Shown here: positions 13,622 to 35,305 of the stretch, in pieces
How the letters are laid out: each line of letters begins with the position of its first letter
Numbering within the stretch: position 1 is the stretch's first letter
DNA from: an uncultured bacterium
Lineage (GTDB): Bacteria; Omnitrophota; Omnitrophia; Omnitrophales; Abzuiibacteriaceae
DNA: 64,000 nt
Assembly: GCA_964387845.1 (NCBI GenBank)
Contig: CAYLXA010000005.1
Span: 140,955 to 204,954, forward strand
Reading direction: 5' to 3'
Position numbers and translations under genes: made by a program
Notes under the pieces: model-generated
Database searches by the model: none
The model's input: only the letters and a program-made list of their open reading frames with translations
What the model was told of the DNA's origin: nothing

Positions 13622-13739
13622 ATCAGTTTTTCGCGAATTTCCTCTTTGCAGGGCTTTTATTTGTCCGCATAAAGGCTCTGTACATCCGAAGTTTTAAGCG
13701 TATAATTGCCCACATCGCCTTTCAACACAGGAGTTTGTC

Positions 13740-14333
13740 ATGAAAAGTGCTGCTTTTAAGTCATTTCTCCTTTTATCCCTATCTTTCTTTGCCGTTCAAC
13801 CCGCTTTTGCCGCTCAATATAAAATTGATCCCGATCACACGACGGTACAATTCGAAATCAAACATCTGCTCACCAACGTGCGCGGCCGGTTCAATCATTT
13901 CAGCGGAAGTTTCACTTATGAAGCCGGTAAGCCTGAAACCTGGAATGCCAATGTTAACATTCAGGCCGAAAGCATCGATACGAACGTTTCGGCGCGCGAC
14001 AAGCATTTGCGGTCCGAAGACTTCGTCGATGTTGAAAAATTTCCGATATTGAAATTTGAAAGCACAGGTGTTTCGGATGCGGGTGAATCGAGTTTTAAGC
14101 TGCAGGGCAATTTAACGATTCATGGCGTGACGAAACCCGTGACATTTGATGCCGAAATTTTAGGGACCGCAAAAGATCCTTGGGGTAATACATTTGCAAG
14201 TTTTACGGCTACGGCCAAGATTAACCGCAAAGATTTCGGGTTGACTTGGAATCAGGCCGTGGAAACAGGCGGATTCCTGGTTGGGGACGAAGTGACCATC
14301 ATGCTGGAAGTGGCGGGATTACTTCAAGCGTAA
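13740..14333 (+). CDS. YceI-family periplasmic protein
   Basis: Signal peptide then YKIDPDHTTVQFEIKHLLTNVRGRFNHFSGSF: the YceI polyisoprenoid-binding fold signature. Confidence 0.8.
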   Translation: MKSAAFKSFLLLSLSFFAVQPAFAAQYKIDPDHTTVQFEIKHLLTNVRGRFNHFSGSFTYEAGKPETWNANVNIQAESIDTNVSARDKHLRSEDFVDVEKFPILKFESTGVSDAGESSFKLQGNLTIHGVTKPVTFDAEILGTAKDPWGNTFASFTATAKINRKDFGLTWNQAVETGGFLVGDEVTIMLEVAGLLQA

Positions 14334-14394
14334 TGGGAACTATTTCCGGCCGGAATGTGTTAAGTCAATAACATCAACAACAGGAGGAGTACAA

Positions 14395-14652
14395 GTGGAA
14401 AAGAAGAATAGCAAAAAGAAAGCATTGTTGGCGGCGTCCATCGCAGGCTTAATTGCGGTTGCAGGCGCGGTGTTGCCGGCATCAGTTGCTTATGCGGAAG
14501 ATGTAAAATGTTCAGGCGTCAATGCTTGCAAGGGCAATGGCGATTGCGGCGGCGCGGGAAGTTCTTGTGCTGGTTCTAATGCCTGCAAAGGCCAGGGCTG
14601 GATTTCGGTTTCTGAGAAGGCCTGCAAGCAGCTCGGCGGAACAGTGGCTTAA
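14395..14652 (+). CDS. DUF2282-type secreted Cys-rich peptide (bufferin-like RiPP precursor)
   Basis: GTG start 7 nt after AGGAGG; Sec signal MEKKNSKKKALLAASIAGLIAVAGAVLPASVAYA; core KCSGVNACKGNGDCGGAGSSCAGSNACKGQGWISVSEKACKQLGG has 6 Cys in the KC.GV/DC/SCAG/W..V/C..LGG pattern of DUF2282. Confidence 0.7.
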   Translation: MEKKNSKKKALLAASIAGLIAVAGAVLPASVAYAEDVKCSGVNACKGNGDCGGAGSSCAGSNACKGQGWISVSEKACKQLGGTVA

Positions 14653-14708
14653 TAGCTGTGCCTTGAGTTGGTTTGTTGAAATACCGTGAAGCGTGACTGG
14701 AAAATGCA

Positions 14709-16427
14709 ATGAGCAAGATCACAAGCCGCGGCGTCGGAGTCGGTTTAAGAAAAGAGCACTACCCATCGATTCTTGAAAAATGGCCGCCCATGGATTGGTT
14801 TGAGGCCATTTCCGAGAATTACATGGATACGGGCGGCCGGCCGCTTGCTGCTTTGGAAAAAGTTCGTGCGCATTATCCCGTCGCGCTTCACGGTACTTCG
14901 ATGTCGCTTGGCTCTACCGATCCTTTCCATCCCGATTATTTGCCCCGTCTGAAAAAATTAATCGATCGCATCGATCCTTTTATTGTTTCGGACCACCTTT
15001 GCTGGTCCGGCGTCGACAAAAACCACCTTTACGACTTACTGCCGCTTCCGTTTACCGAAGAGGCCATCCGGCACTTGGTTTCGCGCATTCAGCAGGTCCA
15101 GGAATATTTGGGGCGCTCCATCCTGATTGAAAATGTTTCGACTTACATCACTTTCAAGAACTCCGAAATCAGCGAATGGGAATTTATTTCCGAAATTTCA
15201 AAGCGTTCAGGATGCGGCATTCTGCTTGATCTCAACAACATTTATGTCAATTCCGTTAATCACCATTTTGACCCTTTCGACTATATTCAAAACATTCCAA
15301 CCGAAGCCGTCGGTCAGTTTCATTTGGCGGGGCACACGGATATGGGAAAATATTTATTTGATACACACAGCGGTGCCGTGATTGACCGGGTTTGGGATCT
15401 GTACCGGAAAGCACTTGAGCGATTCGGACAAGTTTCAACCTTAATCGAGTGGGACGCCGAAATCCCGAGTTTCGAGAAGTTATCCGAAGAAGCCGCGAAA
15501 GCGCGGAATGTTTACAAAGAGTTTCCAGCCGTTGTTGCGAGGCATGAACCAAGCGGCGCCGAAGCAATCTCTGAATCGCAGATTGCTTCGACATCAACTT
15601 TGGAAACATCTCGCAATGACCGCAAAATTTTACTTTCCGAAATTCAAAAAAAATTCAGGCCCCGAATCCAGCCAAAGCGCCAGGCATTTGATCCTGCCGG
15701 CGAAGTTTTGAATCCCCAGGGCGGCGATCCGGGCGAAGTGCGCCTTGATGTTTACTCAAACGGTTATGTTGCGAGGTTCCAGGAGTCGCTCTCAGAAGTG
15801 TTCGAAGCTGTACACGCAGTCTTGGGCGATAGCGCATTCTATGATTTGGCGAGCGAATACACATTTCATTATCCGTCGATGCATTACAATTTAAATTTAG
15901 TCGGCTGTCATTTTCCGGATTTTTTAAAAACGCACCCGCTTTCAAAAAAAGTTCCTTTTTTGGCTGATTTGGCGCAGCTCGAGTGGCAAATTTCAGCGGC
16001 TTTTCATGCCTACGATATCGAGCCGATCAATCCGGCGCAGCTTGCGTCGATTCCGGCGGAGGAGTGGGAAGATCTGAGGGTGACTTTTCAGCCGTCGGTT
16101 TCGCTGCTTTCGTCGACATGGCCCGTGCTCGATATTTGGCTGAAACGGCATGAGCGCGCAGAGCGAGTCAATATCGACTTAGAAAACAGGCCTCAACATG
16201 TATTAATCGGGCGCCGCGAACTTCAAGTCCGGTGCGAATTTTTGGATTCACTCCAGTTTCACTTAATCAAAGGACTTTTAAACGGCCAAACGCTGGGCGA
16301 GGTATGCGGTGAGTTGGCGGATTTGGTTGAGGATGAAACCGAAATTCCCATAACCGATTGGTTTCAGCGCTGGGTCCGGGATCAAATGATTGTTCGCTGC
16401 GAATCTGCACGTCAAGCATCTTTGTAA
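14709..16427 (+). CDS. fused DUF692 (multinuclear non-heme-iron oxidase, MbnB/BufB-like) and DUF2063 (MbnC/BufC-like partner) protein
   Basis: aa 1-280: GVGLRKEHY...DWFEAISENYM...ALHGTSMSLGSTDP...FIVSDHLCWSG...ILIENVSTYI...GCGILLDLNNIYVNSVNH...FHLAGH (DUF692 TIM barrel); aa 330-572: VYSNGYVARFQESL...SAFYDLASEYTFHYPSMHYNLN...FLADLAQLEWQISAAFHA (DUF2063); single continuous frame. Confidence 0.85.
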   Translation: MSKITSRGVGVGLRKEHYPSILEKWPPMDWFEAISENYMDTGGRPLAALEKVRAHYPVALHGTSMSLGSTDPFHPDYLPRLKKLIDRIDPFIVSDHLCWSGVDKNHLYDLLPLPFTEEAIRHLVSRIQQVQEYLGRSILIENVSTYITFKNSEISEWEFISEISKRSGCGILLDLNNIYVNSVNHHFDPFDYIQNIPTEAVGQFHLAGHTDMGKYLFDTHSGAVIDRVWDLYRKALERFGQVSTLIEWDAEIPSFEKLSEEAAKARNVYKEFPAVVARHEPSGAEAISESQIASTSTLETSRNDRKILLSEIQKKFRPRIQPKRQAFDPAGEVLNPQGGDPGEVRLDVYSNGYVARFQESLSEVFEAVHAVLGDSAFYDLASEYTFHYPSMHYNLNLVGCHFPDFLKTHPLSKKVPFLADLAQLEWQISAAFHAYDIEPINPAQLASIPAEEWEDLRVTFQPSVSLLSSTWPVLDIWLKRHERAERVNIDLENRPQHVLIGRRELQVRCEFLDSLQFHLIKGLLNGQTLGEVCGELADLVEDETEIPITDWFQRWVRDQMIVRCESARQASL

Positions 16428-16563
16428 GTTATTTTACCATAATAGTTTATATAAATTCCATTGGTCGCCCATTGACGGCACTGTTTTTACTGGTTATTAT
16501 TATCAGGTCAGTTTCGGAATCAATCTTTGATTCAATTCGAGCGAGTTTATCAGGAGGAAAAAG

Positions 16564-16863
16564 ATGAAAAAGTTTTTTGCAGTGTTTGCAGTTTTGTTTT
16601 TGGCGGTTTTTGTGTTTTCAAGCCCGGCACTTCTTATTGCCGAGGAAGCAGCTCAACCGGCAGCTCCGGAAGAGCCTGTTGTTGAGCCTGCTGTAGCCGA
16701 ACCCGCGGATGCATTGGTGGATGAAATGGATTCGGAAGAGTATTTTGATGAAGCCAAGGTTCTTCGTGATGCAGCGGCAAAGCTGAAAGGAATGGCGGGC
16801 GATGCGGAAGCTCAAAAGTTAGCCGGCCAGCTCGAAGAATTAGCGTCTGATTACGAATATTAA
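16564..16863 (+). CDS. small secreted acidic protein (hypothetical)
   Basis: Signal peptide MKKFFAVFAVLFLAVFVFSSPALLIA, then a Glu/Ala/Pro-rich 70 aa; followed by a strong terminator. Confidence 0.5.
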   Translation: MKKFFAVFAVLFLAVFVFSSPALLIAEEAAQPAAPEEPVVEPAVAEPADALVDEMDSEEYFDEAKVLRDAAAKLKGMAGDAEAQKLAGQLEELASDYEY

Positions 16864-16888
16864 TCGATTGTAGTTTGTTCACCAAAAA

Positions 16889-16920
16889 GGCCAGCAGCTG
16901 AACACTGCTGGCCTTTTTTT
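16889..16920. terminator. intrinsic terminator
   Basis: ggccagcag-ctgaaca-ctgctggcc then TTTTTTT. Confidence 0.75.
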
Positions 16921-16933
16921 CTCAGGGAAGTTC

Positions 16934-19072
16934 ATGCCGTCTCACTCACAAAAGTCTCCCAATCATCTGATCCGGGAAAAAAGTCCCTATCTTTTGCAGC
17001 ACGCCTATAATCCGGTCCATTGGTATCCGTGGGGCGGGGAAGCTTTTCAAAAATCCAAACTCGAAGACAAGCCCATCTTTCTTTCGATCGGATACTCAAC
17101 CTGCCACTGGTGCCACGTAATGGAAGAAGAATCTTTCGAGAATCAAGCGGTCGCGGATATCCTGAACGAATATTTTGTATCGATCAAAGTGGACCGGGAA
17201 GAGCGGCCGGACGTGGACGGTATTTATATGAAAGCTGTCATGGCCATGACCGGCTCAGGCGGTTGGCCGATGAGTGTTTTTCTGACACCGGATTTAGAAC
17301 CTTTTTACGGCGGCACATATTTTCCGCCGGAAAGCCGCTACGGGCGTCCGGGATTCCTTACCATCTTGAATGCGATTGCGGATAAATGGAAAACCGAGAA
17401 AGGTTCTATGACAAGCGCCGGCAAAGAATTAGCCGGAGCGCTTCGGGCCGATTCGGAAAACGAGCCCGGTCAAAAAGCCGCATTGGATCAAAAGCTGCTT
17501 TCGGTTGCTTTTCATCAATTGGAATCCCAATATGACGGAGCCTTGGGCGGATTCGGCGGAGCACCGAAATTTCCGCGAAGCCACGTTATGTCTTACTTGT
17601 TCCGGTTTTGGAAACGCTCAGGGGAATCCGTGGCACTTGATATGTCGCTTCAAACGCTGCGTGAAATGGCGAAGGGCGGCATGTATGACCATGTGGGCGG
17701 CGGATTTCACCGATACTCCACCGATGCCAAATGGCACATCCCGCATTTCGAAAAAATGCTTTACGACCAGGCGCTGATCGCCAAAACCTATCTCGAAGCA
17801 TATCAGGCCACGCATGAGGAAAACTTTGCAAATGTAGCAGGGGAAATATTTAATTATGTGCTCCATGATATGAAAGCCCCCGAGGGGGCATTCTATTCTG
17901 CCGAAGATGCCGATAGCTTGCCGGAGAAAGACTCAGCCAAAAAAACAGAAGGCGCATTTTATATTTGGAGCGAGAAAGAAATTTTGGCGCTCTTGGGTGA
18001 AAAAAACGGAAAGTTTTTTAATTTCATCTTTGGTGTTGAACCGGACGGCAATGCCGAAACCGATCCTCATGGTGAGTTTACCGGAAAGAATATTTTGTAC
18101 TTAGCGCATTCGATTGATGAAGCGGCAAAAAATTTTAATAAAACCGAAGAAGAAATCAAAAAAATCGTCCGAGAATCAAAAACCATCTTACTAAAAGCGC
18201 GCGCAGAACGCCCAAAACCGCATCTGGATGACAAAATTTTGGCCGACTGGAACGGCTTGATGATTTCAGCGCTCGCATCGGGTTCGCTCATTCTTCGAAA
18301 TCCGTGCTATGCGGAGGTTGCTTGCAAAGCCGCCGATTTCATTATGGAGAAAATGACGATTCACGGGAAACTCATGCACCGTTACCGCGACGGAGAAGTG
18401 GCAATCGAAGGATTTCTGGATGATTATGCGTTTTTCTCGAACGCGCTTTTGGATCTTTATGAGGCGACTTTTCAGGTGCGGTATTTGAGTGAAGCGGCTC
18501 GGTTGGTTGAAAGAATGAATGCGCTTTTTTGGGATGGAAAAAGCGGAGGCTACTTTTTCTCAAGCTCTGGCGGCGAAAAATTGATTGCTCGAAGTAAGGA
18601 AATTTATGATGGCGCGATTCCTTCGGGGAATTCCGTAGCGGCAATGGTATTGGTTCGGCTTAACCGGATGACGGCAAAATCCGAATACGAAAAGCGTGCC
18701 GGTGAATTATTCGACGCGTTTTCTGTTCAGCTTGCGCAGTTTCCGGCCGGATATCCGCAGATGATGATGGCGTTTGATTTTTCGCAAGGCCCCTCGCGCG
18801 AAATCGTGATCGCGGGCAATCAAAAAGCCGAAGAGGTCCGGAAAATAGCCGATATAATATTCAGCACATTTTCGCCGAACCAAGTAGTTCTGTTTCATCC
18901 TCAGGACGGAAGTGAGGCAGAAGCGGTTGAGCAGTTGGCACCGTTCGTGAAGAGCCAAGGACTTGTGAGCGGCAAACCGGCGGTTTATATTTGTGAGAAT
19001 TACACATGTTCGCTTCCTGTGACGGATGTGTCAGATTTAAAAAAGAAATTGGGAGTTAGTGGAAATGCCTGA
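16934..19072 (+). CDS. thioredoxin-domain protein of the YyaL/DUF255 family (N-terminal Trx fold plus six-hairpin glycosidase-like domain)
   Basis: [45 protein letters not shown] motif typical of DUF255/SSP411. Confidence 0.8.
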
Positions 19073-20264
19073 AAGTTTTCTTGAAATCCTAAGTATTTAT
19101 CTGCTTGGGCTTGGACTCAATCTGACGCCCTGCGTGTATCCCATGCTATCGATTACTGTTTCTCTATTTGGACGGCAAACGGGCGGGCACCATCATCACT
19201 CAGCTTTGAAGGCAATTGTCTATGTGCTTGGGATGGCAGCCATGTACAGTGCGCTTGGCGTGACAGCAGCACTGACGGGCGGATTTTTCGGTTCATTTCT
19301 GCAAAATACTTATATCTTGCTAGCGATCGGTGCCGTTTTGGTGGCGCTTGCGCTCAGCATGTTCGGCTTTTATCAAATTAATGCACCCTCCTGGATTCTG
19401 CAGAGAATCGGCGCTCCCAAACACGTGGGGCTCATCGGCATTTTTTTCTCTGGGCTGATGGTGGGTATTATCGCCGCGCCTTGCGTGGGGCCGCCCGTCA
19501 TCGCACTCTTGGCGATTGTGGGTTCGCGTGGCGAACCGCTTTATGGATTCCTCGTATTCTTTGTTCTATCCATCGGGCTCGGAACACCCTATTTAATATT
19601 GGGAACATTCTCCGAGCTGCTCCGAAAAATCCCAAAATCAGGGGTTTGGCTTATTTGGATGGAACGTTTTTTTGGTGTCGTACTTCTTGCGATGGCGGCG
19701 TATTATTTCTTAATTGCACTAAATCCTACGCTTCTCAAATGGCTTCCGACCGCGGCACTTGTGCTGGGCGGTATTTATCTCGGATTTCTAGAAACATCGG
19801 GAAATCAAAAAATAAAATTCAATCGCTTTAAGAAAACAGTAGGTGTTATTGCAGTCGTTGTTGGTTTGGCACTTCCTTTTACAGGGCCGAAGCAAAATGT
19901 GGTTTGGGAAGCGTATTCAGCTGAAAAGATAGAAACCGCGAAAGCCGCGGGGCAGCCTGTTATCTTTGATTTCTATGCCGATTGGTGCATTCCTTGTCAT
20001 GAGCTGGACCGGTTTACTTATTCAGACCCCGAAGTTATCAAAGCGCTCGATCATTTTCTCCGCATCAAAGTTGATTTGACTGACACGGATACACCTGAAG
20101 CCGAAGAGCTGACGGATAAGTACGAGATTGTCGGCGTCCCCACCATCGTTTTCCTGGATAAGCAGGGAAATGAAGTCGAGGAGGCCCGCACAAACGGCTT
20201 CATTGATGCCCAGGAAATGCTCGAAATCCTGAATTCGCCTTCTTTTGTAGAACCAACTTCCTAA
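19059..20264 (+). CDS. DsbD-like thiol:disulfide interchange protein (CcdA-type membrane domain fused to C-terminal thioredoxin)
   Basis: [14 protein letters not shown] and [15 protein letters not shown] Cys pairs in TM helices; C-terminal [15 protein letters not shown] Trx motif. Confidence 0.75.
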
Positions 20265-20367
20265 TCCAAATTTTTATTGACTTTCATAATCATCATATAC
20301 AATATACATTTCTTAATAACTCACCACGCTCATCTCCGCGCAAGACGGTTTGACTTCCGCTTCTTCT

Positions 20368-20390
20368 AGTATATACTTTAGGTATATACC
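20368..20390. promoter_or_regulatory. putative antitoxin operator (tandem palindromic GTATATAC x2) over the RBS
   Basis: agtatatac-ttta-ggtatatacc immediately upstream of AGGAGG and the antitoxin start. Confidence 0.4.
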
Positions 20391-20401
20391 AGGAGGCCTC
20401 C

Positions 20402-20638
20402 ATGAAAGTATTGTCGCTTAAATTAAGAGATGATGTGTTTGACGAAGTCGAGCAAGTAATCAAAAAAAACAATATGCCGCGTAACGCGTATATTAATGAG
20501 GCGCTCATTTTTTTCAATCAGTTAAACAAGCGGAAATGGATGAGAAAAAAACTGCAGAAGGAGTCTCTCTTGACGCGGGGGGTTTCCATGGAAGTACTGC
20601 GTGAAATGGAAAAGTTAGAAGACAGCTTGGATTCATGA
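20402..20638 (+). CDS. type II antitoxin (putative, MazE/RHH-like)
   Basis: 78 aa, precedes the MazF-like toxin by 4 nt; N-terminal DNA-binding-like segment. Confidence 0.5.
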   Translation: MKVLSLKLRDDVFDEVEQVIKKNNMPRNAYINEALIFFNQLNKRKWMRKKLQKESLLTRGVSMEVLREMEKLEDSLDS

Positions 20639-20642
20639 AATC

Positions 20643-20984
20643 ATGAAAATCGAAAAGTTTCATATCTACTTAACCGATCTTAATCCGCAAATCGGGACCG
20701 AGCCCGGAAAAATCAGGCCGGTCACCGTGATTCAAACCAACCTGTTAAACAATACCCATCCCAGCACGATTATTTGCCCGATGACGACCAAAGTGGTCAG
20801 GCAGGCAAGGATTTTAAGGGTTCATGTTTCTTCTGCTGAATCGGGACTGAACACAGCTTCTGATATCCTGGTAGATCAAATTCGGGCTATTGATAATCGG
20901 CGGCTTAGGAAACATATTGGAAAGCTGACCTCCCCGCAGGCGAAAGAGCTTCTGGCCAATCTTAAACTTTTAATCTTAGAATAA
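20643..20984 (+). CDS. MazF/PemK-family endoribonuclease toxin
   Basis: IYLTDLNPQIGTEPGKIRPVTVIQTNLLNN...IICPMTTK matches the PemK/MazF core. Confidence 0.75.
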   Translation: MKIEKFHIYLTDLNPQIGTEPGKIRPVTVIQTNLLNNTHPSTIICPMTTKVVRQARILRVHVSSAESGLNTASDILVDQIRAIDNRRLRKHIGKLTSPQAKELLANLKLLILE

Positions 20985-21034
20985 TCATTCCGTTTTGGTA
21001 TAATATGGTTGTTTTTAACTGTTAAAGACCGCTT

Positions 21035-22978
21035 ATGTCCATTACGCAATCAACCACGGCCAAACTCCGAATTATTAGTTTCGAAAGCCGTCTGTCCTCA
21101 ACCATGACAGAGCTGATCCACAAAGCCGGCCATGCGCCTATCGCGGCGCCGGCACTGCAGGAAATCCCGCTCGAGAAAAATCCCGAAGCGTTTCAATTAG
21201 GGGAGCGGCTCCTCAATCACGAAATTGATTTCATGATCTTTCTAACGGGTGTCGGCACAAAAGCGCTCTTTGAAACCTTGAGAACCCGTTACAACATGAA
21301 ACAAATCATTGCGGCCTTGAATCAAACCATCATTGTTGCGCGAGGCCCGAAGCCGGTTCAGGTTTTGCAAGATTACGGAATCATGGTTTCGGTCCTGGTG
21401 CCGGAGCCCAATACCTGGCGCGACATTTTGGAAGTTTTAGACTCAGACGAGCATAGCATTTCTCTGATGAAAAGGACTGTCGCGGTCCAAGAATACGGAG
21501 AGGAAAATCCGCAGCTCATCGCCGGATTGGTGGAGCGCGGCGCGCGCGTAATCCGGGTTCCCGTCTACCGGTGGGCGCTGCCGGATGATACCAAGCCGCT
21601 AAAAAATGCGATTCGGACCATCATCGAACACAACGCGGACGCGGTGCTCTTCACAAACTCGGTGCAGGTCAATCATTTATTTCGGCTGGCCTCGGAAATA
21701 GGCCTTGAAAGGCATTTAAAACAGGCCTTTGCCAAAATGGTGATCGCTTCCGTCGGCCCTCATTGTTCTCAAGCGATTGTTGAGCATGGGCTTTCCGTTG
21801 ATATCCAGCCCGAGACGCCGAACATGGAGTCGCTCGTCTTGGAAGTGTCAAAACGCGCGAAGGCCATTTGGGATGAGAAGCAATTACATGAAAGCAAACT
21901 CATGGATTCCGGCATCCGAATGGAATCAGAAAGAGTCCAAAAAAAGGAATTGGTGGAAAGCGTATTTTTAAAAGCGTGCCGGCTTGAAAAAACATCTCAC
22001 ACACCGGTTTGGCTGATGCGCCAAGCAGGGCGCTACATGAAAGAATACCGGCAGCTGCGTGAAAAAATGCCCTTTCTGGAACTTTGCAAAAACCCATCAC
22101 TGTGTGCAGAGGTTACAATTCATGCCCAGGAAACCATCGGAGCGGACGCTGCTATTATTTTTTCGGATATCCTGCTTTTGGTACAGCCGTTTGGCCTGGG
22201 CCTTGAGTATTCGCGGGAAGACGGGCCCGTGATTGACAATGTTATTCACCGCGGATCGCGCATCGATGAACTTCCCGAGATCGAACCGGCCGATTCGCTC
22301 GGATTTGTATATGAAGCGATCCGAAAAACGCGCGAGAATCTGCAGTCCAACATTCCGCTGATCGGGTTTGCCGGAGCACCGTTTACGCTGGCGTCTTACA
22401 TGATTGAAGGCGGCTCATCAAAAGATTTTAGGCGCACAAAGCTATTCATGTATTCCGATGAAGGCCAGTGGCGCGCACTGATGGAAAAATTGGCACGCGC
22501 CGTATCGAAACATCTCAAGGCGCAAATTGAGGCCGGTGCTCAGGCGGTTCAGCTTTTTGACAGCTGGGTCGGTTGTTTAGGCCCCGGCGATTATAAAAAA
22601 TATGTACAGCCGTACTCCAAACAGGTATTTGATTCGCTAGAAGGGCTCGCGCCGACCATTCACTTTGGAACCAACACCGGAAATTTGTTGGAGCTCATGA
22701 AAGAGGCGGGCGGTGATGTAATCGGCGTCGATTTTCGGATCACGTTGGACCAGGCTTGGCGAAGAGTGGGATATTCAAAAGCAGTGCAAGGAAATTTGGA
22801 TCCGCTGGTGCTGCAGTCATCGATTCCTTATATTAATCAGCGTGCACAGGAAATTATCAAGCAGGCCTCCGGACGCCCAGGGCACATTTTCAATTTGGGC
22901 CACGGTGTTTTGCCGGATACGCCTGTTGAAAATGTGATCGCGTTGGTGGATATGGTCCACGAACTCAGTGGTAAGTGA
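21035..22978 (+). CDS. hemE: bifunctional uroporphyrinogen-III synthase (N-term) / uroporphyrinogen decarboxylase (C-term)
   Basis: C-terminal 350 aa: TPVWLMRQAGRYMKEYRQLREK... is the HemE signature; N-terminal 270 aa HemD-like (two-lobed flavodoxin-like; weaker); single ORF of 647 aa. Confidence 0.7.
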   Translation: MSITQSTTAKLRIISFESRLSSTMTELIHKAGHAPIAAPALQEIPLEKNPEAFQLGERLLNHEIDFMIFLTGVGTKALFETLRTRYNMKQIIAALNQTIIVARGPKPVQVLQDYGIMVSVLVPEPNTWRDILEVLDSDEHSISLMKRTVAVQEYGEENPQLIAGLVERGARVIRVPVYRWALPDDTKPLKNAIRTIIEHNADAVLFTNSVQVNHLFRLASEIGLERHLKQAFAKMVIASVGPHCSQAIVEHGLSVDIQPETPNMESLVLEVSKRAKAIWDEKQLHESKLMDSGIRMESERVQKKELVESVFLKACRLEKTSHTPVWLMRQAGRYMKEYRQLREKMPFLELCKNPSLCAEVTIHAQETIGADAAIIFSDILLLVQPFGLGLEYSREDGPVIDNVIHRGSRIDELPEIEPADSLGFVYEAIRKTRENLQSNIPLIGFAGAPFTLASYMIEGGSSKDFRRTKLFMYSDEGQWRALMEKLARAVSKHLKAQIEAGAQAVQLFDSWVGCLGPGDYKKYVQPYSKQVFDSLEGLAPTIHFGTNTGNLLELMKEAGGDVIGVDFRITLDQAWRRVGYSKAVQGNLDPLVLQSSIPYINQRAQEIIKQASGRPGHIFNLGHGVLPDTPVENVIALVDMVHELSGK

Positions 22979-23075
22979 TAAGTGGTAAGTGGTAAGTTTG
23001 GATGAACCAGTCAAACTTGATTAAAATTTTATTTTTACTTATCACTTACAACTTACAACTTACAACTTAAAACTG
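22967..23075. repeat. hairpin element, GTAAGT(G/A) class
   Basis: agtggtaagtgataagtggtaagtggtaag ... cttatcacttacaacttacaacttacaacttaaaactgg; covers the last 4 codons of hemDE and ends 7 nt before hemY. Confidence 0.75.
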
Positions 23076-23081
23076 GAAAAT

Positions 23082-24524
23082 ATGCCTAAAATCGCGATTA
23101 TCGGCGGCGGAATATCAGGGCTTTCCTGCGCGTACCGTTTGCTCGAACTTGCAAAAGAATTCGGAAAAGAGCTTGAAGTCCGGATTTTTGAACGTGGTGA
23201 CCGGTTGGGCGGTACGATCGAGACTGAAATCCGCGATGGTTTTGTTCTGGAGAAAGGCCCTGATTCTTTTATCTCCGAAAAACCAGCCGCGGTCGAGCTT
23301 GCAAAAAAACTTCGCATTGAAAACTTCCTGATCAATACCCGGAGCGAAAACCGGAAAAGTTTTATCCTGAAAAACGGAAAACTTTTTCCCGTTCCGCCCG
23401 GTTTTTATTTAATCGCACCCACGCAGGCATTGGAGTTTATGAAGTCTCCGCTCTTGTCATTTCCCGCCCGGTGCCGCGCCATGGCGGAGATTTTTATTCC
23501 AAAGCGCGTCAGCGAAAATGACGAAAGCATCGGTTCGTTTGTCCGCAGGCGGTTCGGCGATGAAATGCTTGAACGGATCGGACAGCCGATGATCGGCGGA
23601 ATTTACACCGGCGATCCGGACCGCTTAAGTCTTCTGTCCACCATGCCGAGATTTCGTGATTTGGAAAAAAAATCCGGAAGCGTGATTAAAGGAATGTTGG
23701 CCGCAATGTCGCGAACAGAAACCGGTGTTTCAGAAGCGAGCGGCCCGCGTTACAGTTTGTTTTTGTCGTTTAAAAACGGAATGGAAACTCTGGTCAGCTC
23801 GCTCATGAGCCAGATTCCGTACAATTTTGTGCAGTTTGAATCCAAGCTGACCGAGATTGATTACAGTTTTGAAAAACAGGCGTGGTTTGTTGAAATGCAA
23901 AACGGGGAGGTGTATGAAGCAGATGCAGTTTGTGTGGCGGCATCGGCTCGGACGGCTGCGCAGCTTTTTGCGAATTCTTTTCCCGATTTGTCGCGCAAGC
24001 TCAACCGGATCCGGTTTGAATCCGTGGCGACCATCAATTTTGCATTCAAACGGGACCAAATCCGTCATCTGCTCGATGGATTCGGTTTTGTCGTACCCAA
24101 AATCGAGAAAAGGCCTCTTGTGGCCTGTTCCTTCAGTTCTCAGAAGTTTGAAGGCCGCGCACCCAATGACTGCGTTTTGCTTCGGGCGTTTACGGGCGGC
24201 GCGTTCGGGCGCGAATATTATCAAATGGAAGATAAAGATCTGATTAGCGCGGTTGCCCGTGATTTGGCAGAACTGCTCGGTATTCAAGGGGATGCGCTCT
24301 TTTATGATTTGGCCCGGTATCCAAATGCGATGGTTCAGTATGAAGTAGGGCATCTTGAGTTGGTCGGATCGATTCAATCAGATATCAACGAGATGAAGGG
24401 ACTTTTTCTAACCGGTTCTTCATTCAAAGGGGTCGGAATTCCGGACTGTATTGCGGATGCTTTTAAGCAGGCGGAAGCCATGTTTGCGCTTTTGAGCCAG
24501 AAATGCGAAAGCATCAAGTCTTGA
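23082..24524 (+). CDS. hemY: protoporphyrinogen/coproporphyrinogen oxidase (HemY family)
   Basis: IAIIGGGISGLSCAYRL FAD-binding Rossmann fold, amine oxidase fold throughout, 480 aa. Confidence 0.8.
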   Translation: MPKIAIIGGGISGLSCAYRLLELAKEFGKELEVRIFERGDRLGGTIETEIRDGFVLEKGPDSFISEKPAAVELAKKLRIENFLINTRSENRKSFILKNGKLFPVPPGFYLIAPTQALEFMKSPLLSFPARCRAMAEIFIPKRVSENDESIGSFVRRRFGDEMLERIGQPMIGGIYTGDPDRLSLLSTMPRFRDLEKKSGSVIKGMLAAMSRTETGVSEASGPRYSLFLSFKNGMETLVSSLMSQIPYNFVQFESKLTEIDYSFEKQAWFVEMQNGEVYEADAVCVAASARTAAQLFANSFPDLSRKLNRIRFESVATINFAFKRDQIRHLLDGFGFVVPKIEKRPLVACSFSSQKFEGRAPNDCVLLRAFTGGAFGREYYQMEDKDLISAVARDLAELLGIQGDALFYDLARYPNAMVQYEVGHLELVGSIQSDINEMKGLFLTGSSFKGVGIPDCIADAFKQAEAMFALLSQKCESIKS

Positions 24525-24564
24525 TTCGGGTGATATAATAATTGCCTCAAAATTTGGAGTTACC

Positions 24565-25662
24565 ATGAACCACAAACATCTGATTTTGACAGGCCTCGTA
24601 GCGAGCTTGCTGTTTTCTCCCGCCGTTTTTGCGGCAGAATCGGCTTCAGCGCCGTCAATCCAAGCGAATCCAAGTTCGGAAGCTAAAATTCCCCAAGCGC
24701 TCGGAATCGGTTTCGAAGCATACCGGAAAGCGTTGGACGATCTTTTCTTTTTGTCGCTAAAAACCAATCAAAATGCCGATTTCGGTATCAACGAAATCAT
24801 CGTCGGGCTCAACGAAAAAATCAAAACTAATCCCAAGGACCAGGAATCGCTGGCTTATCTGGGCCACATTTACCGGATTTTAAACCAACCGCGCGAAGCC
24901 AACCGGTTTTACCAAAAAGCGCTTGCGCTTGGGGCAGACAAATTCCAGCTCAACTCATTTTCGGGCGTCATGCTGCTCCAGCTTCAGGATTTTGAAAAAT
25001 CCATGGAAGCGCTCAGTCATTCGTTGGAGCTAAACCCGAACGACAGCGACATCTGGGTTCTCTACGGCCGTGCGCTTTTGTATTTGCAGGATTTTGACAA
25101 TGCAATCTTGAGTTATGAAAAAGCGTTTAGCCTGGCTCCGCAGAGCGAAGAAGCCGCGCTTGCGCTTGTCACCATTTATGAACGCCAGAAAAAATACGAT
25201 GAAGCAGTACGCGTGCTTGAGAATTTCCTGAAAGCGGTTCCGGACCATAAGATGGCGCAATTTCATCTCGGCGTTGTTCATTTGTCTCAGAAGCAGCCCG
25301 AGCGCGCCGTTCAGGATTGGGAAACGCTTTATTATGCCGGCGTCCGCGAGCCGCAATTTTTGCTTAATTTGTCGGTTGCCTATCTGGAAGCGGGTGAGTC
25401 GGCAAAATCTCAGAAAATTTTGGAACATCTCCAGTTTTTCTTTCCGAGAAACACCGATCTTTTATTTCTAACGGCGGAAGCAAACCGTCAAATGAACCGC
25501 CTGGACGACTCGGCACGAAATTATCGAAAAGCAATTGCAGAAGACCCGTCTTTCATGAGCGCCCATATCGGTTTGGCGCAGGTTTTGAAGGAAATGGGGA
25601 AGGACAAGGAAAGCCAGAAAATCCTACAGAAAACAGCGGAGCGTTTTCGCGACGAGTCATAA
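24565..25662 (+). CDS. TPR-repeat protein with signal peptide
   Basis: N-terminal signal, multiple 34-aa TPR-like repeats (YQKALALGAD, YEKAFSLAPQ, YRKAIAEDPS). Confidence 0.7.
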   Translation: MNHKHLILTGLVASLLFSPAVFAAESASAPSIQANPSSEAKIPQALGIGFEAYRKALDDLFFLSLKTNQNADFGINEIIVGLNEKIKTNPKDQESLAYLGHIYRILNQPREANRFYQKALALGADKFQLNSFSGVMLLQLQDFEKSMEALSHSLELNPNDSDIWVLYGRALLYLQDFDNAILSYEKAFSLAPQSEEAALALVTIYERQKKYDEAVRVLENFLKAVPDHKMAQFHLGVVHLSQKQPERAVQDWETLYYAGVREPQFLLNLSVAYLEAGESAKSQKILEHLQFFFPRNTDLLFLTAEANRQMNRLDDSARNYRKAIAEDPSFMSAHIGLAQVLKEMGKDKESQKILQKTAERFRDES

Positions 25663-25680
25663 AGTCAGGAGAGTTTTCTC

Positions 25681-26076
25681 ATGGCCATGATCGGTTACAA
25701 AGAAGAACCCGAGAAGCGTAAATTTCCCAGAACCAAAAAACAGTTCATCATCCGCTATCGCGCGTTTAAAGGTGCCGAATATGAAGGCGGATGGAGCCCG
25801 GCAACCACCCAGGATATTAGCGAGGAGGGCTGTTATTTCACTGCAACCGCGCCTTTTGAAAAAGAAGCCCACATCGAAATATTGATGAAAATTCCGGCAT
25901 CACGCGACGATCTTAGGTTTGTTGCCGAAGTTCGGCATTGCACCCAGCTATCGGCTAGAGCGATGGAGGTTTACGGGATCGGCGTCCAGTTTCAGCGCGT
26001 GGGTTCTTCGAATTTATCGATGGCGGTTTTGAAGTCTTACCTGGACAAAGTTATTCCTGCCAAAAACTCAGCGTGA
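25681..26076 (+). CDS. PilZ-domain protein
   Basis: [12 protein letters not shown]...DISEEG: RxxxR and DxSxxG c-di-GMP-binding motifs. Confidence 0.6.
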
Positions 26077-26997
26077 CGATTCGTTCGGCACGATTTTTTG
26101 CAATTCCTGCGGCAATTTTGCTTCAAATACTTTTTTTTCCTTCGTGACCGGGTGTTCCATGGTCAGCCGAAAAGCATGAAGCGCCAGGCGTCCGGCCGGA
26201 TTGGTTTTAGCGCCGTATTTTTCATCACCGACAATCGGGTGCCCCAAGTCAGCCAAGTGAACGCGGATCTGGTTTTTCCGGCCTGTTTCGAGCGTGACTT
26301 CCAAAAGCGCCCGTTCGCGGTTTGACTTCACCGTTTGATATTTTGTGACTGAAAATTTGGAAGCCGGATTCGGCCGTCCGGAAAAAACACGTTGAAATTT
26401 GTCTTCGCTTAGAAAGCTTTTGATCGTTCCGAATTTCCTTTTCGGACATCCTTCCACAATCGCGTAATATTTTTTATCAATCGATTTCCAATTTTCCTGA
26501 AGCCATTCTCGGATTTTTTCGGATTTTGCGAACAATAAAATTCCGGATGCGTTCCGGTCCAGCCGGTGCGCAATCACGGCGCGCGTTTTTCCGGAAGAAT
26601 CGCGGCGTTTCAGAAATTCGTTCAACTGATGATCGGCCGTCTGTGTTTTGATTTTGTCTGTCGCGACGCTCAGGAGCCCGGAAGGCTTGTTGATGACGAG
26701 GATCGAATCGTCTTCGTAAATAATTTCTAATTTTGAGGCGATTTTTTTGGCATGATGAAATTCCGGTTTCGACGACGATTCGGTGACGCTGATTTTATCG
26801 CCGGGTGAAACTTCCCAGTTGTAGCGTGTATTGACCTGACCGTTGACGGAAATCTGCCCGCGTTCCAAGAGTTTCTTTAGCTTGCTCCGGGAATAACCTG
26901 CTGCATGGGTAGTTAAATATTCTAAAAGCTTTCCGGATGAGCGGACGGCAACGGTAAACATGACGTGCATCATAGTGGATTTAAAGGGAACGGTCAA
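26068..26997 (-). CDS. RluA-family 23S rRNA pseudouridine synthase (S4 domain plus catalytic domain)
   Basis: [16 protein letters not shown] catalytic Asp motif; N-terminal S4 RNA-binding domain. Confidence 0.8.
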
Positions 26998-27061
26998 TTT
27001 GCCTTATGGCTTGGTTTTGATTCATGTGTTAAAATACTTCTGTTCGCATCTTGAGGGATTT

Positions 27062-27874
27062 ATGAAGAAAAGTTTTGTTTTAGTCATCCTATTATCTGCA
27101 TGTTTGATTTCACCTGTCCTCTTTGCCGATGATGAAAACCCCGTCCGAGCCGAGTTGATCTCCGAAGTTAAATCAGTTCAGCCCGGGCATCCGTTTTGGG
27201 TTGCGATCCATTTTAAAATGGATGAAGGCTGGCATACTTATTGGAAAAACCCGGGCGAAGTCGGGCTTCCCAACAAAGTGAAGTGGGATTTACCCGAAGG
27301 ATTCGAAGCCGGGAAACTCAAATGGCCTTATCCGGAAAAGATCATGGAAGGCGACATTGCCGCATTTGCTTACGAGGGCGAGGTGCTTTTGCTTAGCGAA
27401 ATCAAAACACCGGCTTCGATTGAGGGCCCGGAAGTGACGCTTAAAGCAGAAGTCGGTTGGTTGGCTTGCAAAGAAATTTGCTTGCCGGGAGAGGCAAGCG
27501 TGACGCTTTCACTTCCGGTTACCGCTGAAACACCCGAAGCAGACGAGCGCAATAAAGACCTATTCTCTGTAACCCGCTCGCATTTGCCTGTAACGGAGCC
27601 TGCTTGGGGTGTGAAAGTCGAAAGCAGTTGGGGTAAATTCAAGCTGCAATTTGCCGCGCTTGCGCAGCTGGAGAGTGCCGAATTTTTCCCGATCGAGAAA
27701 CGAGTCGTTGAGCTTAGCGCTAATCAGGATTTCAAAAAAACAAAAGAAGGTTATGAGTTAATGTTGGTGCGCGCAAAAGATTTTGATAAATCAATCAAAC
27801 AATTTCAGGGCGTTTTGGTGGTCCGGGGCATTGGAGCGGATGCGAAGGCGATCTGGGTTGACGTTAACCTTTAA
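27062..27874 (+). CDS. DsbD N-terminal-domain-like periplasmic thiol-disulfide protein
   Basis: Signal peptide MKKSFVLVILLSACLISPVLFA; HPFWVAIHFKMDEGWHTYWKNPGE...LACKEICLPGE resembles the DsbD-alpha/DsbC-like disulfide reductase domain; track ORF start 26960 is an in-frame upstream extension. Confidence 0.55.
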   Translation: MKKSFVLVILLSACLISPVLFADDENPVRAELISEVKSVQPGHPFWVAIHFKMDEGWHTYWKNPGEVGLPNKVKWDLPEGFEAGKLKWPYPEKIMEGDIAAFAYEGEVLLLSEIKTPASIEGPEVTLKAEVGWLACKEICLPGEASVTLSLPVTAETPEADERNKDLFSVTRSHLPVTEPAWGVKVESSWGKFKLQFAALAQLESAEFFPIEKRVVELSANQDFKKTKEGYELMLVRAKDFDKSIKQFQGVLVVRGIGADAKAIWVDVNL

Positions 27875-27941
27875 CTCCGGGGCCCATGTCTCGGAGCAAT
27901 AACCGGATTGAAACTCGAGGTTTCGATTCATTGGAGGAATT

Positions 27942-34701: not shown

Positions 34702-34744
34702 CTCTTTTGTGTTATACTCTTTCGGTTCTTTGAGAAAGGCTTTT

Positions 34745-35172: not shown

Positions 35173-35173
35173 C

Positions 35174-35258
35174 AGTTGTAAGTGATAAGTGATAAGTGGT
35201 AAGTTGTAAGTTTTAAGAATTCATAAACTTATCACTTAAAACTTACCACTTACAACTG
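35174..35258. repeat. GTAAGT-class hairpin element with CCAGTTGTAAGT...ACTTACAACTGG termini
   Basis: cagttgtaagtgataagtgataagtggtaagttgtaag-ttttaagaattcataa-acttatcacttaaaacttaccacttacaactgg, directly 3' of rnpB. Confidence 0.75.
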
Positions 35259-35305
35259 GGGAAGAAACAGAATTCGGCTTATGCCGAGAAAAGCCTCTCT
35301 TTTTT

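What the first reader, a model, noticed from the sequence alone, without database searches (positions are those of the whole stretch)
13740..16863. Bufferin-like RiPP locus: Sec-signal DUF2282 6-Cys precursor followed by a fused MNIO(DUF692)-DUF2063 enzyme
Seen in sequence: an 85-aa GTG-initiated ORF with a strong AGGAGG RBS, a Sec signal peptide and the core KCSGVNACKGNGDCGGAGSSCAGSNACKGQGWISVSEKACKQLGG. It is followed 56 nt downstream by a 572-aa protein whose N-terminal half has the full DUF692 signature and whose C-terminal half has the DUF2063 signature (VYSNGYVARFQESL...LADLAQLEWQ). Established knowledge: DUF692 proteins are multinuclear non-heme-iron oxidases (MbnB, TglH, ChrH, BufB) that act with a DUF2063-type partner to oxidise Cys in ribosomal peptides. 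Signal-peptide-bearing DUF2282 precursors plus MNIO plus DUF2063 define the recently described bufferin copper-binding RiPPs (Cys to thiooxazole). Unusual here: MNIO and partner are one polypeptide; the precursor has 6 Cys including two extra ACKG repeats; and no DoxX-type gene is adjacent. Instead a YceI-family gene is immediately upstream and a small acidic secreted protein downstream, with a block of periplasmic thiol-disulfide genes at 16934-28547.
Basis: partly seen in the sequence, partly recalled or inferred. Interest (0 to 1): 0.72.

Follow-up and report, generated by a model that had tools for sequence, protein, structure and literature searches.

The report
Bufferin-2 copper-peptide operon, fused maturase
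This is a real but largely ordinary member of the known "bufferin 2" family of secreted, cysteine-derived copper-binding peptides, from an uncultured Omnitrophota bacterium; it differs from described examples in that the oxidase and its helper protein are one polypeptide and a periplasmic YceI lipid-binding protein is a conserved part of the operon.

Summary
All the ORFs exist as described. The 85-aa precursor is not DUF2282: it passes NCBIfam BufA2 (72 bits, cutoff 60) and does not hit Pfam PF10048. The 572-aa protein passes BufB (375 bits, cutoff 310) and Pfam DUF2063. Its modelled C-terminal half matches only the MNIO partners TglI and NGO1945.

Six Cys and the absence of DoxX are normal for Buf2, so they are not unusual features.

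The fusion is genuine. The identical protein occurs in two assemblies. More than 120 close homologues and at least 92 clusters at 50% identity carry both halves. Sister lineages keep bufB and bufC separate, in several cases divided only by one in-frame stop codon.

The conserved unit is yceI–bufA2–bufB(C). YceI accompanies 12 of 13 fused loci and nearly all of the sister clade, in changing flanks and gene orders. It accompanies few other Buf2 loci.

The acidic ORF and the thiol-disulfide block are syntenic only in the closest relatives, and the thiol-disulfide block also lies beyond a strong terminator.

The papers I could read describe neither a natural MNIO–PME1 fusion nor a YceI link, apart from one Legionella figure legend. 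A 2026 preprint engineered the same B→C fusion and found it more active. Verdict: a new variant of a known kind, of moderate interest.

The parts
13679..13706 (+). Candidate sigma-70-type promoter (TGTACA-16-TATAAT) upstream of yceI
   Evidence: Consensus scan only, 10 of 12 matches. Weak evidence; the promoter type used by Omnitrophota is unknown.
13740..14333 (+). yceI: periplasmic YceI-family (lipocalin-like, polyisoprenoid/lipid-binding) protein, 197 aa with an N-terminal signal sequence. It is a conserved member of the cassette.
   Evidence: Pfam PF04264 at 169.5 bits. Best solved relatives are TT1927b 1wub (3.8e-42), PA0423 and E. coli YceI 1y0g. It lies next to bufA2 in 12 of 13 fused loci, 2 of 3 loci split by an in-frame stop and 8 of 36 other split loci that have enough flank. 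It is also present, in a different order, in L093.
14382..14387 (+). Shine-Dalgarno AGGAGG, 7 nt upstream of the GTG start of bufA2
   Evidence: Read directly from the sequence. The same RBS and start position occur in homologues L001, L006 and L011.
14395..14496 (+). bufA2 signal-peptide region (precursor residues 1-34; predicted cleavage AYA|ED)
   Evidence: Sequence inspection and alignment with other BufA2 precursors. Cleavage at the signal-peptidase site was shown for the Caulobacter bufferins (PMC11626156). The cleavage site here is inferred.
14497..14652 (+). bufA2 core peptide (51 aa, EDVKC...GGTVA, with stop codon). Six Cys at precursor residues 39, 45, 51, 58, 64 and 77.
   Evidence: NCBIfam NF050166 BufA2 at 72.2 bits, cutoff 60. 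The six-Cys register is shared by Buf2 precursors from about 70 loci.
14709..15515 (+). bufBC, N-terminal MNIO (BufB) TIM-barrel domain, residues 1-269
15516..15620 (+). bufBC inter-domain linker, about residues 270-304
   Evidence: pLDDT is below 50 at residues 280-288 and 294-303. This is the least conserved segment of the alignment. The wider segment between residues 269 and 334 varies from 49 to 106 aa among homologues. It corresponds to the BufB tail and bufB-bufC junction of split relatives.
15621..16427 (+). bufBC, C-terminal PME1 (BufC) half, residues 305-572: DUF2063 helical domain followed by an RRE-like beta/helix domain
   Evidence: PF09836 at 52.5 bits, GA 27.2. Colinear with HvfC over positions 23-234 of 237, E 2e-10. 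The profile's best PDB hit is 3dee. The AF2 model of this half (pLDDT 85, pTM 0.84) has only three significant PDB matches: TglI 8hci_A at 8e-6, NGO1945 3dee at 5e-5 and TglI 8hi7_A.
16564..16863 (+). Lineage-specific 99-aa secreted acidic ORF. It may be co-transcribed but is not a conserved component.
   Evidence: No Pfam or NCBIfam family. Homologues occur only in the 73%-identity relatives L006-L008. A promoter-like site lies upstream at 16472-16500.
16884..16925 (+). Intrinsic terminator (GGCCAGCAG...CUGCUGGCC followed by a U run) that ends the unit
   Evidence: RNA fold of -24.1 kcal/mol, z = -3.57, with 0 of 200 shuffles folding as well. The three intergenic gaps from yceI to the acidic ORF show no comparable structure.

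Best explanation
The locus is a Buf2-type bufferin (captophorin) biosynthetic operon, yceI-bufA2-bufBC, in an Omnitrophota chromosome.

Proposed mechanism:
1. The 85-aa BufA2 precursor is made in the cytoplasm.
2. The single-chain BufBC enzyme acts on it there. The C-terminal DUF2063+RRE half holds the precursor. The N-terminal multinuclear-iron TIM barrel uses O2 to carry out four-electron oxidations that convert the four central cysteines (Cys45, 51, 58, 64) into 5-thiooxazoles.
3. The Sec signal peptide then exports the peptide and is cleaved after Ala34.
4. Cys39 and Cys77 form a disulfide.
5. The 51-aa product, expected at -18 Da relative to the unmodified core, sequesters copper in the periplasm.

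Fusing B to C fixes a 1:1 complex that is otherwise weak. The fusion arose from adjacent bufB-bufC genes, probably by loss of the bufB stop codon.

The co-transcribed periplasmic YceI lipocalin is an accessory of unknown role. It is conserved in this clade and takes the place that DoxX has in Buf1 operons.

Shown here: family memberships, domain architecture, fold, conservation of the metal-ligand positions, reality and spread of the fusion, conservation of the cassette, and the operon boundary.

Inferred from characterised relatives: the chemistry, which Cys are modified, export, copper binding, and any role for YceI.
For: - Family thresholds are passed for BufA2 and BufB, and for Pfam MNIO and DUF2063.
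- The AF2 model of the whole protein has pLDDT 91 and pTM 0.89, with a disordered linker.
- The N-terminal half matches DUF692, TglH and MbnB. The C-terminal half matches only TglI and NGO1945.
- Nine candidate Fe-ligand positions are invariant in 61 homologues.
- Buf2 chemistry is described in PMC11626156: Cys I and Cys VI are unmodified and likely form the disulfide, Cys II-V each carry -4.03 Da, the product is -18 Da, and it absorbs at 305 nm. BufB and BufC are both required, and the operons are induced by copper.
- An engineered HvfB-HvfC fusion in the same N-to-C order was fully functional and more active than the co-expressed proteins (bioRxiv 10.64898/2026.07.17.739211).
- The fusion recurs in all 120 listed close homologues and in at least 92 of 149 representatives at 50% identity.
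- In split sister loci the BufC start motif sits just after the BufB stop, and is in frame with it in L013, L018, L021/24 and L022.
- The yceI-bufA2-bufB(C) cassette keeps together while its flanks change. Gene order also changes: L012 has bufA-yceI-bufA-bufBC, L058 has bufB-bufC-bufA-yceI, and L093 has bufBC-bufA-yceI.
- No terminator lies inside the unit, and a strong one follows it.
Against: - No experiment exists on this clade. The modification, the metal specificity and export are extrapolated from Caulobacter, Haemophilus and Fontimonas systems that share only about 50% (MNIO half) and about 30% (partner half) identity with their nearest proteobacterial relatives.
- Precursors of this clade score only just above the BufA2 cutoff (63-75 bits against 60).
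- Omnitrophota are mostly described from low-oxygen habitats (my own knowledge), whereas MNIO chemistry needs O2.
- No copper-handling gene lies next to the operon in the window.
- YceI has no known link to copper or RiPPs beyond one Legionella figure legend.
- One fused locus (L017) has neither YceI nor a precursor nearby. Distant fused loci L094 and L095 also lack YceI.
Confidence: 0.8

Rival explanations
1. YceI is merely a syntenic neighbour inherited within one lineage. It is an unrelated envelope-stress lipocalin that shares a promoter by chance and is not a functional component of the bufferin system.
For: - The YceI sequences are ordinary family members, 46-50% identical to polyisoprenoid-binding TT1927b, with no Cys and no obvious metal site.
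- Most Buf2 loci outside this clade lack it (28 of 36 split loci).
- The fused loci L017, L094 and L095 lack it.
- The literature treats the precursor, MNIO, DUF2063 and DoxX as the core and reports other conserved genes only at extremely low proportions (PMC12452194).
Against: - Adjacency persists across loci whose enzymes are only 44-60% identical, whose outer flanks are completely different, and whose gene orders are rearranged. In L012 yceI sits between two precursor genes.
- It reappears sporadically in unrelated Buf2 branches (L049, L058, L084) and in a Legionella Buf BGC.
- YceI and bufA2 are on the same strand with gaps of about 18-200 nt and no terminator between them.
Confidence: 0.35
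2. The peptide is a Buf2-like thiooxazole RiPP, but its physiological role in this organism is not copper buffering. It could handle another thiophilic metal or serve periplasmic redox or oxidative-stress protection.
For: - MerC-bufferin fusions and 'gold-induced' gig operons suggest roles with other metals (PMC12452194).
- Thiol-redox genes recur loosely nearby: DUF255 and DsbD in the window, a DsbD-like gene overlapping the end of bufBC in L016, DUF255 upstream of yceI in L049, AhpC in L010, DUF1223 in L093, and VKOR and MauE once each.
- No copper exporter or oxidase lies adjacent in the window.
Against: - Every characterised MNIO-PME1 product binds copper: Buf1, Buf2, oxazolin, fontiphorin and bulbicupramide (PMC11626156, PMC13097082, PMC12538549).
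- The six-Cys register of copper-induced Caulobacter Buf2 is fully conserved here.
- One relative has a Cu/Zn superoxide dismutase as neighbour.
Confidence: 0.2
3. The downstream periplasmic thiol-disulfide block (DUF255, DsbD-TM-Trx, DsbD_N, peroxiredoxin; 16934-28547) belongs to the same functional system.
For: - It is immediately adjacent on the same strand in the window and in L006-L008.
- An independent DsbD-like gene overlaps the end of the fused gene in L016, and a DUF255 gene lies upstream of yceI in L049.
- Buf2 needs one periplasmic disulfide.
Against: - A strong terminator separates the block from the operon.
- The block is interrupted by a toxin-antitoxin pair, haem-biosynthesis genes, a TPR protein, a PilZ protein and a pseudouridine synthase.
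- It is absent next to the cassette in L001, L009, L010, L011, L012, L020 and the sister clade.
Confidence: 0.08
4. The 572-aa ORF is an assembly or sequencing artefact that joins two genes.
For: Most described bufferin clusters have separate bufB and bufC genes whose ends overlap by a few bases, so a single indel could fuse them.
Against: - The identical ORF is found in two independent assemblies.
- Fused orthologues occur in more than 120 clusters at 90% identity and at least 92 clusters at 50% identity, from many samples.
- The two-domain AF2 model is confident, with pTM 0.89.
Confidence: 0.01

Closest known systems
Caulobacter vibrioides buf2 operon (bufA2-bufB2-bufC2; bufferin 2), Leprevost et al. 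2024, PMC11626156
   Same: - A Sec-signal precursor with the same six-Cys register (BufA2 model passed).
- A BufB-type MNIO and a DUF2063+RRE partner.
- No DoxX.
- The predicted product has 4 thiooxazoles and 1 disulfide.
   Different: - B and C are one polypeptide here.
- A yceI gene is part of the operon.
- The host is an uncultured Omnitrophota bacterium rather than a proteobacterium.
- Regulation by SigF/NrsF is not evident here, although relatives L012 and L093 do have ECF sigma/anti-sigma pairs.
Engineered HvfB-HvfC fusion (oxazolin maturase of Haemophilus influenzae), bioRxiv 10.64898/2026.07.17.739211
   Same: - An MNIO joined through its C-terminus to the N-terminus of its PME1 partner.
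- It forms thiooxazoles on a Sec-exported Cys-rich substrate.
- The fusion enforces 1:1 stoichiometry.
   Different: - That fusion is artificial and has no linker. Here the fusion is natural, ancient and widespread, and it keeps a 49-106-aa variable segment between the two domains (residues 269-334 of the window protein).
- The substrate family differs: EGKCG repeats there, the Buf2 six-Cys domain here.
buf1 / gig operons (DUF2282 BufA1 - BufB1 - BufC1 - DoxX)
   Same: The same enzyme pair, the same chemistry and the same periplasmic copper-buffering logic.
   Different: - The precursor family differs: four Cys and Pfam PF10048, which is not matched here.
- The fourth gene is the membrane protein DoxX there, whereas here the extra gene is periplasmic YceI.
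MovX (MNIO with a fused C-terminal RRE/wHTH domain)
   Same: A natural single-chain MNIO that carries its own peptide-recognition module.
   Different: MovX carries only an RRE/wHTH domain and needs no PME partner (as summarised). BufBC carries a complete PME1 (DUF2063 + RRE) and belongs to the BufB clade.
YceI family (E. coli YceI 1y0g, Thermus TT1927b 1wub, Helicobacter HP1286 3hpe)
   Same: The cassette's first gene is a typical secreted member of this family (E 4e-42 to 1wub).
   Different: Known members are linked to isoprenoid or lipid binding and to envelope and pH stress. None has been functionally tied to a RiPP operon. The only mention I found is a figure legend on one Legionella Buf BGC.

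Membership tests
BufA2 / Buf2 (BUF_6/12Cys) bufferin precursors | Match to the curated family model (NCBIfam NF050166) above its cutoff | tested here: met
   72.2 bits against a cutoff of 60, covering model positions 3-78 of 79. Eight related precursors score 63-102 bits.
BufA2 / Buf2 (BUF_6/12Cys) bufferin precursors | Six (or twelve) conserved Cys in the family register | tested here: met
   Cys39, 45, 51, 58, 64 and 77 fit the shared pattern C-x-G-x-N-x-CKG...C...C-x-G-x-N-x-CKG-x-G-[WFY]...C seen in about 70 Buf2 precursors.
BufA2 / Buf2 (BUF_6/12Cys) bufferin precursors | N-terminal Sec signal peptide | tested here: inconclusive
   A positively charged n-region, a hydrophobic core and an AYA|E site are seen by inspection and are conserved in homologues. 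No signal-peptide predictor or export assay was available.
BufA2 / Buf2 (BUF_6/12Cys) bufferin precursors | Genetic association with an MNIO and a DUF2063-type partner | tested here: met
   The enzyme gene starts 56 nt downstream on the same strand. The same arrangement holds in all related loci.
BufA1 / DUF2282 (Pfam PF10048) | Match to PF10048 | tested here: not met
   No PF10048 hit even at E<=10 for the window precursor or eight relatives. Precomputed annotations list PF10048:BufA1 for the two L012 precursors, and as weak for the L006/L007 precursor. That suggests a distant relationship only.
BufB-type MNIO (DUF692, PF05114) | Curated model thresholds | tested here: met
   NF050167 at 375.4 bits, cutoff 310; PF05114 at 363.9 bits, cutoff 25. 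The HvfB, ApyH, MbnB and ChrH models all score below their cutoffs.
BufB-type MNIO (DUF692, PF05114) | TIM-barrel fold with conserved His/Asp/Glu/Asn iron ligands | tested here: met
PME1 (DUF2063 + RRE partner of MNIOs; BufC/HvfC/NGO1945) | DUF2063 domain (PF09836) followed by an RRE-type domain, total about 250-260 aa | tested here: met
   PF09836 scores 52.5 bits against GA 27.2. The 268-aa C-terminal half is colinear with HvfC over positions 23-234 of 237. Its AF2 model shows a helical domain plus a beta-hairpin/helix domain, and it matches only TglI and 3dee.
PME1 (DUF2063 + RRE partner of MNIOs; BufC/HvfC/NGO1945) | Stand-alone protein forming a heterodimer with the MNIO | tested here: not met
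   Here it is covalently fused to the MNIO. This is the point of difference, not an argument against homology.
Bufferins / captophorins (functional class) | Cys converted to 5-thiooxazole (-4 Da each; absorbance near 305 nm) | not testable with these tools
   Requires co-expression followed by LC-MS, UV and NMR.
Bufferins / captophorins (functional class) | Copper binding, and copper-stress induction or protection | not testable with these tools
   Requires native MS or ITC and physiology. No copper gene is adjacent in the window.
Canonical four-gene bufferin BGC with DoxX | DoxX gene in the cluster | tested here: not met
   tblastn with a DoxX protein from L095 found no DoxX homologue in the 64-kb window. 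DoxX was found in 0 of 40 neighbour ORFs in the YceI clade. It is not a requirement for Buf2.

The most novel reading that the evidence does not exclude
YceI is a previously unrecognised periplasmic component of a large, mostly uncultured clade of Buf2 systems. One possibility is that it carries an isoprenoid quinone or lipid that couples the exported thiooxazole peptide (its disulfide or its Cu(I)/Cu(II) chemistry) to the membrane redox pool, and so stands in functionally for DoxX. Together with this, natural single-chain MNIO-PME1 maturases form a broad, undescribed architectural class (at least 92 clusters at 50% identity) that serves several precursor types: the Buf2 six-Cys domain and GCKGK repeats.
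Probability: 0.3. Interest if true: 0.6.

Novelty: new variant of a known kind. Interest (0 to 1): 0.42.

Why it matters
Bufferins and related captophorins are the largest group of MNIO-made RiPPs, and they are a recently recognised bacterial defence against copper.

Mechanistic work on their maturases has been hampered by weak, sub-stoichiometric MNIO-partner complexes. A 2026 preprint solved this by fusing HvfB to HvfC artificially.

Nature has made the same B-to-C fusion many times over, with native linkers and confident two-domain models. This offers ready-made, probably well-behaved enzymes for structural and spectroscopic study. It also confirms that the 1:1 complex is the functional unit.

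The conserved yceI gene points to a testable accessory function for a protein family whose physiological role is still vague.

The locus also extends bufferin systems, which are O2-dependent, into Omnitrophota.

None of this overturns current understanding. It refines the catalogue.

Tried and rejected
- **DUF2282 assignment.** Rejected. There is no PF10048 hit at E<=10.
- **Frameshift artefact.** Rejected on the recurrence data.
- **Recoded stop between the halves.** L013, L018, L021/24 and L022 have an in-frame stop at the junction. Both TGA and TAG occur, and a normal BufC start motif follows, so these look like ordinary split genes.
- **Profile search of the C-terminal half against PDB sequences.** It gave only a weak 3dee hit, E 0.013.
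- **Genome-contig scan.** With the single protein as query it gave only 4 loci. The metagenome scan with an alignment was more useful.
- **RNA structure in the intergenic gaps.** None was better than shuffled sequence, so there is no evidence for an attenuator or a precursor-stabilising hairpin.
- **Literature on YceI with copper, MNIO or DUF692.** Only one supplementary figure legend turned up.
- **Chen & van der Donk MNIO review (PMC11806912).** It is not held, so I cannot exclude that natural fusions are mentioned there.
- **Rfam.** It found no riboswitch or sRNA near the locus.

Full report
**Observation**

AGGAGG lies 7 nt before the GTG. The quoted core sequence is exact and contains six Cys.

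The source is an Omnitrophota chromosome segment. The neighbouring RpoD has its best named relatives (70-76% identity) exclusively in Candidatus Omnitrophica/Omnitrophota MAGs. The rest of the window encodes housekeeping genes.

**Family assignment**

The precursor does not match Pfam DUF2282/PF10048, even at E<=10. It passes the NCBIfam equivalog model for BufA2 at 72.2 bits against a cutoff of 60. Eight related precursors also pass, at 63-102 bits.

The enzyme passes NF050167 'MNIO family bufferin maturase' at 375.4 bits against a cutoff of 310. It also passes Pfam PF05114 over residues 8-268 and PF09836 (DUF2063) over residues 313-406.

An AlphaFold2 model built on 61 homologues is confident (pLDDT 91.1, pTM 0.89). 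It shows two domains joined by a disordered linker at about residues 280-303.

- Nine His/Glu/Asp/Asn positions are invariant across the 61 sequences. I take these to be the iron ligands, based on my recollection of the MbnB ligand order.
- The C-terminal half, modelled alone (pLDDT 85, pTM 0.84), has only three significant matches in the PDB: TglI twice and NGO1945/3dee. These are the solved MNIO partner proteins.

The 572-aa protein is therefore a complete BufB joined to a complete PME1-type BufC.

**What is and is not unusual**

The literature defines Buf2 by six (90% of cases) or twelve conserved Cys (PMC12452194). The founding Caulobacter buf2 operon has no DoxX (PMC11626156).

About 70 Buf2 precursors collected here share the window's Cys register. 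DoxX appeared in 0 of 40 neighbour ORFs of the window's clade and in 3 of 63 neighbour ORFs of other Buf2 loci. A tblastn search with a DoxX protein found none in the window. The '6 Cys, extra ACKG repeats, no DoxX' features are therefore the norm.

**The fusion is real and widespread**

- The identical protein is found in two assemblies, and a 73%-identical fused orthologue in three more.
- All 120 listed homologues at 48-73% identity are 537-629 aa and carry both domains.
- An exhaustive HMMER search of 1.84 billion representatives returned, among the best 149, at least 92 clusters at 50% identity with both halves in one chain (515-621 aa, 31-44% identity).
- Named examples include Omnitrophota, Eisenbacteria and 'Deltaproteobacteria' MAGs.

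In a neighbour-joining tree of MNIO domains, the fused proteins of the window's group form one subclade. Its sister subclade has separate bufB and bufC (no bootstrap support was computed).

In that sister group BufB ends just after the barrel, and BufC begins with the motif M-x-EPSLRE-x-Q-x-WMK. The same motif lies about 40 residues after the barrel in the fused proteins. In L013, L018, L021/24 and L022 the two genes are in the same frame, separated by a single stop codon. Loss of one stop codon would be enough to create the fusion.

**The conserved cassette includes yceI**

For loci with at least 1.1 kb upstream of the MNIO ORF start, YceI is present as follows:

| Locus type | Loci with YceI |
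|---|---|
| Fused | 12 of 13 (L017 is an orphan enzyme without a precursor) |
| Split by an in-frame stop | 2 of 3 |
| Other split loci | 8 of 36 |

Some of the fused loci are near-duplicates: L005 is the window's own sequence, L006 and L007 are the same, and L011 and L014 are nearly identical. The count of independent fused loci is therefore smaller. In the MNIO tree, nearly all loci of the window's clade (the fused subclade plus its split sister) carry YceI. The other Buf2 branches mostly lack it, with sporadic exceptions (L049, L058, L084).

The outer flanks differ completely between loci, and gene order varies:

- L012: bufA-yceI-bufA-bufBC
- L058: bufB-bufC-bufA-yceI
- L093, a 44%-identical fused system: bufBC-bufA2-yceI-DUF1223, with a divergent ECF sigma/anti-sigma pair

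The YceI proteins are typical secreted family members, with E 4e-42 to the polyisoprenoid-binding TT1927b, and they contain no Cys.

By contrast, the acidic 99-aa ORF, DUF255 and the DsbD-like gene are found with the cassette only in the 73%-identity relatives. In the window a strong terminator at 16884-16918 (z = -3.6) separates the operon from the thiol-disulfide genes. No comparable structure lies in the gaps between yceI, bufA2, bufBC and the acidic ORF. Thioredoxin-fold neighbours do recur loosely (L016, L049, L010, L093), but not consistently.

**Mechanism**

The mechanism is inferred from characterised relatives. In Caulobacter Buf2, Cys I and VI stay unmodified and likely form a disulfide. 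The four central Cys each lose 4.03 Da, and the product is -18 Da with absorbance near 305 nm. BufB and BufC are both required, export is Sec-dependent, and the operons are copper-induced and protect against copper (PMC11626156). MNIO-PME1 pairs broadly install 5-thiooxazoles that bind copper (PMC13097082).

By homology, BufBC should convert Cys45, 51, 58 and 64 of the window's precursor in the cytoplasm. The peptide should then be exported and cleaved after Ala34, form a disulfide between Cys39 and Cys77, and bind copper in the periplasm.

The functional sense of the fusion is supported by a July 2026 preprint. There, an engineered HvfB-HvfC fusion in the same order was fully active in vivo, markedly more active in vitro, and accumulated more of the catalytically relevant mixed-valent diiron state than the co-expressed proteins. 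That preprint lists only MovX and ChrH as natural exceptions to the two-protein rule.

**Novelty**

I found no description of natural MNIO-PME1 fusions in the bufferin, landscape, fontiphorin, bulbicupramide, RRE or HvfBC papers I could read.

YceI is mentioned once, in a supplementary legend for a Legionella BGC.

Fused maturases also serve at least one other precursor type: L095 has a GCKGK-repeat peptide and a DoxX gene.

NCBI already names such proteins 'MNIO family bufferin maturase', so the family assignment itself is routine.

I rate the locus as a new variant of a known kind. It is useful to MNIO enzymologists and gives a lead on YceI function, but it is not surprising at the level of principle.

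**Limits**

- Gene calls in the loci are my own longest-ORF heuristics.
- The tree is a neighbour-joining tree without support values.
- The 80 metagenome loci are the best-scoring subset of more than 573 confirmed matches, so they are not a random sample.
- No signal-peptide predictor was available.
- No chemistry could be tested.

Noticed in passing
L013 3491-3493, L018 4178-4180, L021 632-634, L022 580-582, L024 4596-4598: In five metagenomic relatives (L021 and L024 look like the same organism) bufB and bufC lie in the same reading frame, separated by a single stop codon (TGA or TAG). This looks like the immediate precursor, or a reversal, of the fusion.
   Followed up: partly
L012 4754-5586 and L093 3492-4801: ECF sigma factor plus anti-sigma (zf-HC2 or RskA) genes sit next to Buf2-type cassettes. 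[quoted passage not shown]
   Followed up: no
L095 4698-7137: A 35%-identical fused MNIO-PME1 from a 'Deltaproteobacteria' MAG is paired with a 72-aa signal-peptide precursor made of (K)DGCKGK repeats and with a DoxX gene. Single-chain maturases are therefore not restricted to Buf2 substrates.
   Followed up: partly
L025 2916-3509, L026 3169-3768, L032 3773-4372, L022 1444-2043: ORFs of 197-199 aa lie directly downstream of bufC in these split, YceI-clade loci. L025's is DUF3332 (PF11810), and 4 of the 40 scanned neighbour ORFs match that family. The scan did not name the other three members; by length and similarity to L025 they are probably L026, L032 and L022. It may be another clade-specific accessory.
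   Followed up: no
window 47349-57515 (+): A giant 3388-aa ORF. Its only recognisable Pfam region is a roughly 170-aa enoyl-CoA hydratase-like segment at residues 1922-2090.
   Followed up: no
window 34741-35296 (+): Bacterial RNase P RNA (class A, 183.6 bits) spans 556 nt against a 367-position model, which implies large insertions.
   Followed up: no
window 20402-20984 (+): A small antitoxin-like ORF plus a PemK-family toxin gene are inserted between the DsbD-like gene and hemD/hemE. The pair is absent at the same position in the syntenic relatives L006 and L007.
   Followed up: partly
window 21035-22978 (+): A single 647-aa ORF combines uroporphyrinogen-III synthase (HEM4) and uroporphyrinogen decarboxylase (URO-D). 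The fusion is conserved in L006/L007.
   Followed up: no
window 19059-20264 and 26960-27874: DsbD appears to be split. A TM + thioredoxin protein (401 aa) and a separate secreted DsbD_N-domain protein (304 aa) are encoded about 6.7 kb apart. A 712-aa DUF255/thioredoxin protein lies upstream.
   Followed up: no
L042 1826-4864 and L044 1619-4864: The BufA2-like segment lies at the end of an open frame of more than 1000 codons directly upstream of bufB. This may be an artefact of long ORFs in GC-rich DNA, or a large bufferin-domain fusion protein.
   Followed up: no
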